Source of the DNA: Octopus sinensis
Lineage: Eukaryota
Direction of reading: 5' to 3'
Length of the DNA stretch: 16,392 bases
NCBI RefSeq assembly: GCF_006345805.1
Contig: NW_021825204.1
Location: 1 to 16,392 of the forward strand
Position numbers and translations under genes: made by a program. This document shows positions 9,625 through 14,200 of the stretch, one piece after another. The notes beneath the pieces are model-generated. The model made no database searches, was not told where the DNA came from, and saw nothing but the letters and a program-made list of their open reading frames with translations. The first letter of the stretch is position 1, and the number at the start of each line of letters is the position of its first letter.

Positions 9625-9664
9625 TTCACACTATCACTATTGTTTCACTTCTTACTTCTATATA

Positions 9665-9742
<78 letters not shown>

Positions 9743-9778
9743 AAGTAAAGAAGTGAAACTATGTAGTGATAGTGTGAA
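9625..9778. repeat. Inverted repeat of ~35 bp arms flanking a (TA)n spacer
   Basis: ttcacactatcactattgtttcacttcttacttc (9625-9658) versus the reverse complement of 9742-9778, ttcacactatcactacatagtttcacttctttacttc. Confidence 0.9.
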
Positions 9779-9863
9779 AATTTAATACGTACGTTTCAGA
9801 TTTGCGTAATGTATATTAGGAAATGAATCCATTATGTAAAACTTCCTCAGTTAAGGTATTTCA
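9775..9863 (-). ncRNA. Type I hammerhead ribozyme motif (PLE-type), catalytic core intact
   Basis: The minus strand reads UUAA-CUGAGGA (9850-9844), then helix II AGUUUUACAUAAUG / CAUUACGCAAAUCU (11 of 14 pairs, 18-nt loop), then GAAAC-GUAC-GUA (9797-9786, palindromic helix III), then UUAA closing helix I. Predicted cleavage after the A at 9786. Confidence 0.72.
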
Positions 9864-9869
9864 AAATAC

Positions 9870-9962
9870 TGAAATGCTTTAACTGAGGAAGGCCATATGC
9901 AGTGGATGCATTCCTTATTATACATGACGCAAAACTTGAAAAGTACGTATTAAATTATTTCA
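9870..9962 (+). ncRNA. Type I hammerhead ribozyme motif, degenerate paralog
   Basis: Helix I UGAAAUGCUUUAA (9870-9882) / UUAAAUUAUUUCA (9950-9962) gives 12 of 13 pairs including one G-U. CUGAGGA at 9883-9889; GAAAAGUACGUA at 9938-9949 has a C-to-A change in helix III; helix II is eroded. Confidence 0.6.
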
Positions 9963-10053
9963 AAATATTACTGACGGAGTGCCAGAATGCATATATATAT
10001 AAATATATATATCTTCGAAACAGAAAACATAATTATTATATATACACAGTGTA

Positions 10054-10268
10054 AGGCGGCGAGCTAGCAAAATCGTTAGCATGCCGGATGACATGCTTAA
10101 CGGCATCTCGTCCGTATTTATGTTTTCGGTTCAAATTCTGATGAGTGCAAATTCTTTTGCCTTTCATCCTTTCGAGGTCGATAAAGTAAGTACCAGTCAA
10201 GTACTGGGGTCGATGAAATTGACTACCCGCTCCCCACAAAATTAATTTCAGACCTTGTGTCTTTGGCA
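10054..10268 (+). mobile_element. tRNA-derived SINE, family B (central domain resembling Meta/MESC)
   Basis: Head aggcggcgagctagcaaaatcgttagc, B-box-like ggttcaaattc, central ttttgcctttcatcctttcgaggtcgataaagtaagtaccag; collinear with 11934-12147. Confidence 0.88.
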
Positions 10269-10269
10269 G

Positions 10270-10471
10270 CAGCGATTAGATATAAACAGCGTTAGGTAGT
10301 GACCGTACATTTCGTTTATTTGTACGATCTGAGTTCAAATGCTGCCGAGGTCGACTTCTCCTTTTATTACTTCTGGGTCGATGAAATAAGTACCAGTTGA
10401 GCATTGGGATCGATGTAATCGCCTAGTCCCTTTCCACAAAATTCTAGGTCTTGTGCCTATAACAGAAAAGG
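10270..10471 (+). mobile_element. SINE family B, second tandem copy with a degraded head
   Basis: ctgagttcaaatgctgccgaggtcgactt...gggtcgatgaaataagtaccagttgagcattgggatcgatgtaatcg...cttgtgcctataacagaaaagg. Confidence 0.82.
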
Positions 10472-10577: not shown

Positions 10578-11085
10578 TTTACATCACCATTCTGGAACCC
10601 CTACCTTGCTCAGCATATAAATATCCTAGAAACTGTTCAGAAACGAGCAACAAAACGAATACCCGCCGTCAGACATCTACCATACTCTGAACGTCTTCCT
10701 ACTCTGGGCATGGATACATTGAAGCTCAGACGTCTGCCAACTGATTTGGTAGACACCCTCAGGATTATCCACCAGCTTTCCAACAACAACCTTGGGCACC
10801 TTTTTGAATTCCATATGACAAACACACGCGGACATACTTATAAAATCAAAAACAACATAGCACCCATGACTTTCAGCAACGTTTTGCACGCTCAGAAATG
10901 CTGGAGCATGGAATAAACTACCCGCATCAGTTGTTAGCTGTCGAGACTCTACATCCTTCAAAACATCCATGTTTCCTGAAATCCGCTAACAGTACACCTG
11001 ATGGCCTTTTTGCTTTCTTTCTTTTTTTTTTAGTTGTAGTGCACCTGACCACTGTATACAACAATTTCCTTCATTATTATATTAT
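10578..11085 (+). mobile_element. CR1/L2-type LINE 3' fragment (ORF2 C-terminus plus 3' UTR), 5'-truncated
   Basis: SPFWNPYLAQHINILETVQKRATKRIP...LPYSERL..LGMDTLKLRRL..DL...TRGH.YKI, continuing through two frameshifts as KQHSTHDFQQRF and TLRNAGAWNKLPASVV...SFK, with a stop at 10987-10989. This is the typical CR1-group post-RT region; it ends in (ATT)n. Confidence 0.92.
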
Positions 11086-12840: not shown

Positions 12841-13278
12841 ACAAATATCCATCAAATGTAAATAATGTAAGTGTGTATGTATATATATATATACAGTGTA
12901 CATCTAAACACATAAGAAGCATCCATCATAGGACTCATTGCACGTTAAAAAGAACAGTTAAATTCCAAACCACTATTAGAGATAAAAACTTCGAAGGGAA
13001 TGAAAAATAAAAACATTTACCATCTAAATCCTGGACCATTGGTTTCAGACTTTTTTAGCAAATAAAATAATTTGCTAGGCGAAGACTTTTCCAGCAAGTA
13101 GACCCAAGATTAAACATATATACATGAGGCAATCCAGTATATGCTCCATGTTTCTACATTCTAACTTTTCAAATCTACCGCGTAAGCGCAGCACTTTGTC
13201 GGCAGTAAATGTAATTGCTGGCTTAGTAGAAATTTCTAATATTTTTTATTACCCATGATATTAATATATATATATATT

Positions 13279-14200
13279 GAGGAATGGCATTTGGAGTGTC
13301 GTCAGGTACTTCAGCTACTCTCTCGGGCGGACAATGCCGGCAACAGAAGTTCCCCCGCGGATTTCTATAGCGGGTTAGTGGAATTTATATCTGAAGACGC
13401 CTTGGGGGAGACCCTGAGCTATGATGAAGATCAGTTGGTCAACCTGTTCAGGAGAATGTTCGGGACGAGGTATCTGGATAATTACCAGAAATCTCTGGCC
13501 TGGCAGTGTTTCCGTGCGGCGTTACCTGTTCGTGATAAGCTGTCAAAGCACGGAAGTGCCATCTCGCCGACATGCCCACGATATGAGCAGGATAGGAAAA
13601 CCGTCTTGCACGCATTCATTGTCCGGAGTTATCGGGACTGATACCTTTTGCCGAACAATTGTTATCAGTGATGGGAAGAGTACGGTTGAGTCTATTATCG
13701 AGATTGTGCCGCCTCCTTTCCTCAACAGGGAAAGGAAGGCTTGTTTTTTCTGCGTATTAGCCATACTGAAAGAAACAGTATGGAGGACGCGTATGAAATG
13801 TATAGTGACAGGCACCTTCGTCTCTGGCCAGGGGTTGGTCAACTTTTTTAGTTACCACCTCGGTAGTAAGATCAGGCTGGAGAGGAGGTGTCTGTCACGA
13901 GATATGTTTGTGAAAAGATGGAAGCCCGTAGTGTGCAGGCTGGGTATAAGTGGCACCAGGTAGGTGGGGCCGGGTTGAAAAGTAACGTTTCTGCCCAAAT
14001 GGACGGGTGCCTTGCCTTCGACATGATTTATATAAAAAATTTTAAACTTGTTGATACCCTTTGTATAATTCCTTGTTCATAATTTCATTCATTATTTCAT
14101 TAGTAATTTTTAATTGCTAAAAGCTTATTTACCCTTTTTATTTGTCCTTGTTTGTTCCCTCTTTGTAAATGCCTTAAAGGCAAATTATATATGAAATAAA
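13279..14200 (+). mobile_element. Tx1/L1-clade LINE 3' fragment (zf-RVT zinc-binding region plus 3' UTR), 5'-truncated and frameshifted
   Basis: QKSLAWQCFRAALPVRDKLSKHG...TCPRYEQDRKTVLHAF is a decayed W.....LP....L...G......C..C....ET..H motif. It continues in another frame as LAILKETVWRTR...IRLER...FVKRW with a stop at 13963. The T-rich UTR ends in AATAAA (14195-14200). Confidence 0.88.

What the first reader, a model, noticed from the sequence alone, without database searches (positions are those of the whole stretch)
9765..9972. Divergent pair of hammerhead ribozyme motifs forming a ~200-bp palindrome
Seen: 9765-9863 and 9870-9972 are inverted copies (roughly 80% identical by eye) separated by 6 nt. 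Each arm, read outward from the centre, is a type I hammerhead: helix I, CUGAGGA, helix II, GAAA(C)GUACGUA, helix I. Identity is perfect across the blocks around the core (cttcctcagttaa 13/13, aatttaatacgtac 14/14) but eroded in helix II. Known: Penelope-like elements and animal retrozymes carry type I hammerheads with a short palindromic helix III, and PLE insertions often include inverted pLTR copies. Inference: this is an ORF-less ribozyme-bearing element. Read-through from either strand makes the antisense arm first, so the ribozyme would be trapped in a long duplex and yield dsRNA. Only transcripts starting at the centre could cleave.
Basis: partly seen in the sequence, partly recalled or inferred. 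Interest (0 to 1): 0.75.

Follow-up and report, generated by a model that had tools for sequence, protein, structure and literature searches.

The report
Fossil mirror-image Penelope retrotransposon stump
The palindrome with a hammerhead-ribozyme motif on each strand is real, but it is one decayed copy of an old repeat family with hundreds of copies, likely the usual back-to-back stump left when a Penelope-type jumping gene inserts, and its centre likely marks where the element's RNA began.

Summary
Confirmed: two inverted arms (85 of 106 aligned bases identical), each a type I hammerhead motif read outward from the centre. It is one copy of a dispersed family of roughly 860-900 arms, about 87% identical to their majority and decaying at CpGs. 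Insertions sit in TA/CA repeats as two divergent arms, one ending at a 'short' site and one at a 'long' site about 146 nt further on (21 of 22 classifiable pairs in an unbiased set). This is the described Penelope-like 'inverted pLTR plus one-sided tail' form; a coding Hydra-type family in this genome shows it too. One locus joins an arm directly to a Hydra-type RT fragment. Specific to this family: 17 of 22 arms that reach the foot of helix I stop there (2.8 expected), which is the palindrome's centre and likely the RNA 5' end. The window copy is probably dead: its helices are predicted broken and the right arm lost a helix III pair. No tandem retrozyme arrays were seen. The scan has already reported mirror-image Penelope stumps several times, on other DNA of this and other genomes.

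The parts
9659..9738 (.). (TA)n microsatellite, the likely insertion target, abutting the short end of the left arm
   Evidence: TRF 9659-9738; most short and long ends of the family meet TA/CA repeats
9739..9869 (-). Left arm: short-end arm (family positions about 411-544), from the foot of helix I to the short 3' end
   Evidence: nhmmer hit model 412-549 at 9868-9733, E 3.9e-30; short-end flank list
9851..9869 (-).
   Evidence: sequence; junction listing; alignment A1
9844..9850 (-). Left arm catalytic core, first half (CUGAGGA)
9798..9843 (-). Left arm helix II and loop (about 12 bp stem and 20-nt loop in the family; mismatched here)
9786..9797 (-). Left arm GAAAC, palindromic helix III and GUA triplet; predicted cut after 9786
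   Evidence: 8-bp self-duplex predicted at -9.8 kcal/mol
9870..9972 (+). Right arm: helix I 5' strand shortened by about 6 nt, CUGAGGA 9883-9889, degraded helix II 9890-9937, GAAAA-GUAC-GUA 9938-9949 (C15.2 lost), helix I 3' strand 9950-9968. It is likely the long-end arm with its tail lost
   Evidence: nhmmer hit model 416-517, E 2.4e-24, and no further family piece in the window at E<=1. The long-arm status is inferred from the family rule

Best explanation
The palindrome is a decayed two-armed copy of the hammerhead-bearing end repeat (pLTR) of an old dispersed repeat family, likely inserted by a Hydra-type Penelope-like reverse transcriptase/endonuclease that would have cut both strands of a TA repeat and copied the RNA twice. 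Shown: two divergent arms per insertion, one ending at each of two fixed sites about 146 nt apart; TA/CA flanks; a hard 5' boundary at the foot of helix I; decay of the copies with CpG loss. Inferred: the two fixed ends are internal RT start sites, as shown in vitro for the anole element; both cDNAs ran to the RNA's 5' end at the foot of helix I (a transcription start) and were joined there through the self-complementary ATAT, giving the centre of symmetry. The hammerhead likely worked in the source element, probably as a dimer through the palindromic helix III. This copy is predicted to be inactive, and any read-through RNA would form a long hairpin.
For: Family: 79 matches from 40 scored of 339 candidates; 898 candidates; 57 exact 22-mer hits against 0 for the reversed control, about 860 arms by extrapolation. 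3' ends are bimodal near 544 and 690 (145 ends). Pairing: 30 short+long, 1 long+long, 0 short+short of 31 classifiable among 51 two-armed insertions; 21 short+long and 1 short+short of 22 classifiable among 28 in the unbiased set (the sets overlap in part). 5' stop: 17 of 22 arms reaching position 418 start at 408-417, 2.8 expected, P 1e-11, including solo arms joined straight to TA repeats, and in both helix-II subfamilies (noisy classifier). Coding link: at G000:C14 (L141) an inverted long arm abuts a 57-residue RT-thumb fragment 37-47% identical to intact PLE ORFs of this genome, with the family's upstream part 1.1 kb further on in the same orientation. A young ORF-bearing family (L313) shows the same form: 1932 exact hits, 32 divergent pairs among the first 100 listed (my count), 9 of 9 fetched pairs short+long, about 120 nt apart. 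Literature: inverted 5'-truncated copy and 30-40 bp tail (PMC8557442, passages); palindromes at inverted junctions (PMC3846280, passages); dual hammerheads on opposite strands 100-700 bp apart (PMC4209133, parts 1-2 of 4); two internal RT starts define the tail (PMC11167929, parts 1-2 of 4); internal promoter in Penelope (PMC2377424, passages). Decay: mean 87% identity to the majority, CpG sites at 66-83%, 43 of 109 arms with an intact core; hammerhead-constrained fold -21.9 kcal/mol for the majority against -3.6 and -7.3 for the window arms.
Against: The coding link rests on one locus, where linker and endonuclease are missing; five follow-up searches found no copy with ORF and this pLTR in one piece (with 100-101). 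A supposed ORF start beyond the long end in L281 was not significant (P 0.32-0.38). Core positions are slightly better kept than others (A/T 0.941 vs 0.914, P 0.026; G/C 0.898 vs 0.827, P 0.005), which pure neutral decay from one source does not predict; several source lineages and search bias could explain it. The young coding family has no 5' pile-up (2 of 30 starts at -30 to -45), so the hard stop is not general. The initiator-like match at 411 is weak (13 such sites in 694 positions; consensus recalled). About 10 of the 22 upstream matches begin at one (ATT)n boundary and none shows shared sequence beyond it, which would also fit a non-coding master of about 690 nt. No cleavage, start site or RT start was measured.
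Confidence: 0.75

Rival explanations
1. A non-autonomous, non-coding PLE passenger (retrozyme-like, about 690 nt or a 280-nt short form) was mobilised in trans by a Hydra-type enzyme; the RT fragment at L141 is a template switch or a neighbour.
For: Many longer copies begin at one (ATT)n boundary with nothing shared beyond it; RT-linked copies are 1 of 112; animal retrozymes are argued to derive from PLE pLTRs (10.64898/2026.07.22.740005, part 1 of 5 and passages).
Against: No head-to-tail hammerhead units among 57 unbiased arms. In L150 and L213 microsatellite and later inserts lie between the inverted arm and that boundary, so the boundary may be an internal microsatellite. The RT fragment starts exactly at the arm's end.
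Confidence: 0.3
2. The 5' pile-up is structural, not a transcription start: the 17-bp helix I lets the nascent cDNA fold on itself and release the enzyme just as the helix is completed, and ATAT microhomology fixes the joint.
For: The boundary coincides with the first base of helix I; helix I is long in this family and short in the family without a pile-up; starts are somewhat raised inside the helix I strand (7 at 419-427); some joints use helix-related microhomology (L189, L257, L272).
Against: A longer TA run in loop II stops only 6 of 45 arms (counted), so microhomology alone is not enough; fold-back priming predicts joints onto the 3' strand of helix I, which are a minority.
Confidence: 0.3
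3. The palindrome is a selected, functional unit (a regulated ribozyme switch or a dsRNA source).
For: Both core blocks are intact in this copy; slight excess conservation of core positions; arms within a locus are marginally more alike than between loci (78.6% vs 77.0%, P 0.035, 21 loci).
Against: Both cores intact is expected in about 1 of 10 such loci; only 7 of 57 arms sit in two-core palindromes; helices are predicted broken in this copy; no covariation beyond shuffles in 30 arms (103/500 and 155/500).
Confidence: 0.05

Closest known systems
Insertion units of endonuclease-positive Penelope-like elements: pLTR, adjacent inverted 5'-truncated pLTR and one-sided tail (PMC8557442; PMC3846280; PMC2377424)
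   Same: Head-to-head arms, palindromic junction, an extension on one arm only, TA-repeat targets, hammerhead in the repeat
   Different: The extension is about 146 nt, not 30-40 bp; about three quarters of arms that reach the foot of helix I stop there; no intact ORF-bearing copy was found
Hydra-clade PLEs, including Hydra-1_Obim (PMC8557442 passages and supplement look-ups)
   Same: (TA)n preference, canonical hammerhead whose helix II opens with A-U, RT-thumb motifs at the one linked locus (likeness judged by eye against the supplement alignment)
   Different: Different hammerhead sequence with longer helices I and II; clade not tested by a tree
PLE hammerheads with palindromic helix III, and dual motifs on opposite strands in Schistosoma (PMC4209133)
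   Same: Type I core, larger helix II, palindromic helix III suited to a dimer, opposite-strand pairs 100-700 bp apart
   Different: Helix I about 17 bp with a 2x2 loop and helix II about 12 bp with a 20-nt loop; position 10.1-11.1 is A-U, not G-C
Metazoan non-LTR retrozymes (PMC7229834 passages; 10.64898/2026.07.22.740005)
   Same: Non-coding, AT-rich, type I hammerhead, a unit of a few hundred nt
   Different: Not in head-to-tail arrays; copies are solo or inverted, so no hammerhead-to-hammerhead monomer could be cut out
PAc (Poseidon) of Anolis (PMC11167929)
   Same: Two fixed RT start sites define the tail; both strands are cut and extended; AT-rich target
   Different: The two sites are adjacent (30-40 nt) and lie inside the ORF; here they are about 146 nt apart with no ORF start found

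Membership tests
Type I hammerhead ribozyme | CUGANGA and GAAA core with NUH triplet around three helices, helix I open | tested here: met
   Family majority folds with the core free at -21.9 vs MFE -23.6 kcal/mol, shuffles -13.6 +/- 3.0; 84% of cells paired vs 22-48% when slid
Type I hammerhead ribozyme | Compensatory changes in helices | tested here: inconclusive
   No excess over shuffles in 30 of 109 arms; one subfamily change: an extra base in the helix II 5' strand goes with G478 in 9 of 14 vs 0 of 25 (45 of 107 arms parsed)
Type I hammerhead ribozyme | Fold intact in the window copy | tested here: not met
   Constrained folds -3.6 and -7.3 kcal/mol, helix II not formed as in the majority; right arm lacks C15.2. 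The 2-base insertion seen in run X1 was not folded
Type I hammerhead ribozyme | Self-cleavage | not testable with these tools
   Needs an in vitro assay
EN+ Penelope-like element insertion | Inverted 5'-truncated copy adjacent at the 5' end | tested here: met
   51 of 112 insertions are two-armed and divergent, none listed as non-divergent; 28 of 57 unbiased arms have an inverted partner by the strict filter
EN+ Penelope-like element insertion | Tail on one arm only | tested here: met
   30 of 31 and 21 of 22 pairs are short+long; length about 146 nt, outside the described 30-40 bp
EN+ Penelope-like element insertion | Hammerhead in the pLTR | tested here: met
EN+ Penelope-like element insertion | RT plus GIY-YIG ORF in the same element | tested here: inconclusive
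   One locus with an RT-thumb fragment at the junction; no endonuclease link
EN+ Penelope-like element insertion | Partial tandem (pLTR-ORF-pLTR) | tested here: inconclusive
   Only L281 shows a tail followed by a second forward arm
Hydra clade | (TA)n target preference | tested here: met
   Flank lists of 54 short and 38 long ends
Hydra clade | RT phylogeny | not tested
   A 57-residue fragment, compared by BLAST and by eye only
Non-LTR retrozyme | Head-to-tail repeats each carrying a hammerhead | tested here: not met
   0 of 57 unbiased arms; the three loci flagged are a helix I cross-hit (L258, my reading), a separate tail piece and a partial tandem without a second core
Non-LTR retrozyme | Abundant circular RNA | not testable with these tools
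   Only assembled contigs were on offer

The most novel reading that the evidence does not exclude
These palindromes are fossil 'strong-stop' products of Penelope-type insertion: two cDNAs, primed on opposite strands at two RT start sites about 146 nt apart, both ran off the RNA's 5' end at the foot of the hammerhead's helix I and annealed through a terminal ATAT. The centre of each palindrome then maps the element's transcription start, the ribozyme is the very first structure of the transcript, and Hydra-type tails are three to four times longer than described.
Probability: 0.4. Interest if true: 0.5.

Novelty: new member of a known kind. Interest (0 to 1): 0.27.

Why it matters
As a locus it is ordinary: a dead retrotransposon stump. 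The family statistics are of some use to people working on how Penelope-like elements integrate, a cycle that is still unresolved. The near-strict short+long pairing, the long tail and the hard 5' stop give exact predictions for an in vitro system. Such palindromes would also be natural double-stranded RNA substrates if read through, but that was not tested.

Tried and rejected
Rfam on the whole window (256 matches, best 150 listed, none a hammerhead) and on 9740-10000 (18 matches, none a hammerhead). Expression: no RNA holder listed; contigs only, which say nothing on expression, starts or editing; the letter differences there come from other family copies. Reading the upstream region as a degenerate ORF end: no tblastn match to intact PLE proteins at E<=0.05. 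A piece between arms in L093 proved to be a younger, unrelated family. ORF start beyond the long end in L281: no second copy, motif score not significant, rejected. Walking from old RT and endonuclease fragments (L133-L136, L155, L355-L360) to this pLTR: no contiguous link; an arm 2.4 kb from endonuclease fragments in L377 is a divergent relative in a locally duplicated region, not counted. A Hydra-type ORF near L203 faces the other way. Splice acceptor at the 5' boundary, as described for D. virilis: no AG there (model). Arm concordance for subfamily markers within a locus: not significant (P 0.09 and 0.54). Pfam does not name the RT fragment or the intact ORF tested. Literature searches that did not turn up this family or a tail over 100 nt; Repbase and Dfam were not available, and bioRxiv supplements were not asked for.

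Full report
Observation. The two arms align with 85 identities in 106 bases, far above shuffles. Each reads outward as helix I, CUGAGGA, a long helix II, GAAA, a palindromic helix III and GUA. A short-read contig spans the stretch in one piece with only a 2-base insertion. Rfam does not recognise the motif, probably because its helices are longer than the models allow. The 6-nt 'spacer' belongs to the left arm's helix I, and the left arm runs on to the (TA)n tract at 9738.

Family. A genome search gave 79 matches from the 40 best of 339 candidates, many with the same palindrome. A longer arm gave 898 candidates. I built a 694-position profile from 22 natural copies (core at 430, cut at 494/495, helix I 411-429 with 495-513) and mapped 112 distinct insertions. 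To avoid bias from the query I also took all 57 exact hits of a 22-mer just downstream of the cut (0 for the reversed control; fetched), which extrapolate to about 860 arms. Arms are 87% identical to the majority, CpG sites have decayed most, and 43 of 109 keep an intact core. The family is old and apparently inactive.

Architecture. 3' ends cluster near 544 and 690 (145 ends) and mostly meet TA or CA repeats through a shared ATA/TA. Two-armed insertions are divergent and pair one short with one long end: 30 of 31 classifiable among 51 (20 had a truncated arm) and 21 of 22 among 28 in the unbiased set. The window copy has the short arm on the left; the right arm has lost its tail. Junctions vary widely, but 5' starts pile up at the first base of helix I: of 57 unbiased arms, 35 start at 419-494, 17 at 408-417 and 5 further upstream. 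So 17 of the 22 arms that get that far stop there, against 2.8 expected. The bin was suggested by the earlier sets and then tested on this one, which shares a few loci with them. Solo arms stop there as well. Only 7 of 57 arms lie in palindromes with two full cores, and exact core 12-mers on both arms occur at 4 loci in the genome, the window among them, in line with chance retention.

Ribozyme. The majority arm is predicted to fold into a 17-bp helix I with a 2x2 loop and a helix II of about 12 bp, with the core free at little cost. Helix III is the self-complementary 8-mer typical of dimeric PLE hammerheads (PMC4209133). Pair counts on 30 arms show the helices but no covariation beyond shuffles; one change between subfamilies is compensatory. 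Core positions are slightly better kept than the rest, which I attribute to several source elements and search bias but cannot prove. Both window arms are predicted not to reach the fold, and a read-through RNA would pair arm with arm.

Parent. Longer copies extend about 410 nt upstream through a pyrimidine-rich stretch to an (ATT)n boundary. At one locus an inverted long arm abuts an RT-thumb fragment of Hydra type, with the upstream part 1.1 kb further on behind younger repeats. That is 1 of 112 insertions, and further walks failed. Indirect support comes from a young family with an intact ORF (L313): 1932 exact hits, 32 divergent pairs among the first 100 listed, and 9 of 9 fetched pairs short+long about 120 nt apart, but with scattered 5' starts (30 arms).

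Mechanism. Shown: two fixed ends, one per arm; TA targets; a hard 5' boundary; decay. Inferred from PMC11167929 (both strands cut and extended, two internal RT starts making the tail): a PLE enzyme primed one cDNA from each strand of a cut TA repeat, one at each start site. Inferred here: both cDNAs ended at the RNA's 5' end and joined through the palindromic ATAT at 411-414. Penelope has an internal promoter (PMC2377424), and rotifer pLTRs carry palindromes at their 5' ends (PMC3846280), so a start at the pLTR's edge is plausible. The initiator-like match is weak, and a structural stop caused by the long helix I remains a real rival.

What is known. The inverted 5'-truncated copy with a one-sided 30-40 bp tail is the described PLE insertion form (PMC8557442), palindromic junctions were described in rotifers (PMC3846280), and hammerhead pairs on opposite strands in Schistosoma (PMC4209133). 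I read parts 1-2 of 4 of PMC11167929 and of PMC4209133, part 1 of 5 and passages of 10.64898/2026.07.22.740005, passages of PMC8557442 with two searches in its supplement, and passages of PMC3846280, PMC2377424 and PMC7229834. My seven searches did not show this family or tails over 100 nt. Earlier notes of this scan describe the same kind of stump on other DNA several times; a search by this sequence found none.

Verdict. A real feature and a correct motif call, but an ordinary fossil of a known insertion type. The long tail and the hard stop at helix I are the only parts that add something. Interest 0.27.

Noticed in passing
L313 (G000:C21) and L324-L353: Young Hydra-type PLE family with an intact ORF, a long-helix-II hammerhead, 1932 exact 24-mer hits and two fixed 3' ends about 120 nt apart; a good source for in vitro work.
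   Followed up: partly
L112-L131: Another young TA-targeted family (1545 candidates, 92-96% identity to the query in the fetched copies) with inverted arms and two ends about 40 nt apart; no CUGANGA seen in the stretch printed.
   Followed up: partly
L027:1965-2288, L027:2419-2670, L029:268-423, L060:1035-1233, L209:5886-6278, L218:679-1332: Further unrelated inverted repeats carrying hammerhead-like cores in the flanks of fetched loci; such stumps are common in this genome.
   Followed up: no
L316, L318: Hydra-type ORFs followed about 600 nt later by a hammerhead with long helix II whose helix I and core resemble this family's design.
   Followed up: partly
L377:1325-1653: Divergent relative of this family's arm with a different helix II and upstream region, 2.4 kb from old endonuclease fragments in a locally duplicated region.
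   Followed up: partly
L057: A whole two-armed insertion stands twice in tandem with identical arms; local duplication or assembly repeat.
   Followed up: no
window 10053-10460: Copies of an abundant SINE-like repeat directly right of the palindrome; the same repeat occurs in flanks of several other loci.
   Followed up: no
window 13240-13963 and 10584-10985: Broken LINE-like coding fragments; 13240-13638 has a zf-RVT match below the curated cut-off (E 3.8e-05).
   Followed up: partly
window 9778: Run X1's contig has two extra bases here, in the left arm's helix I 3' strand: an allele or a small error in the window's assembly.
   Followed up: no
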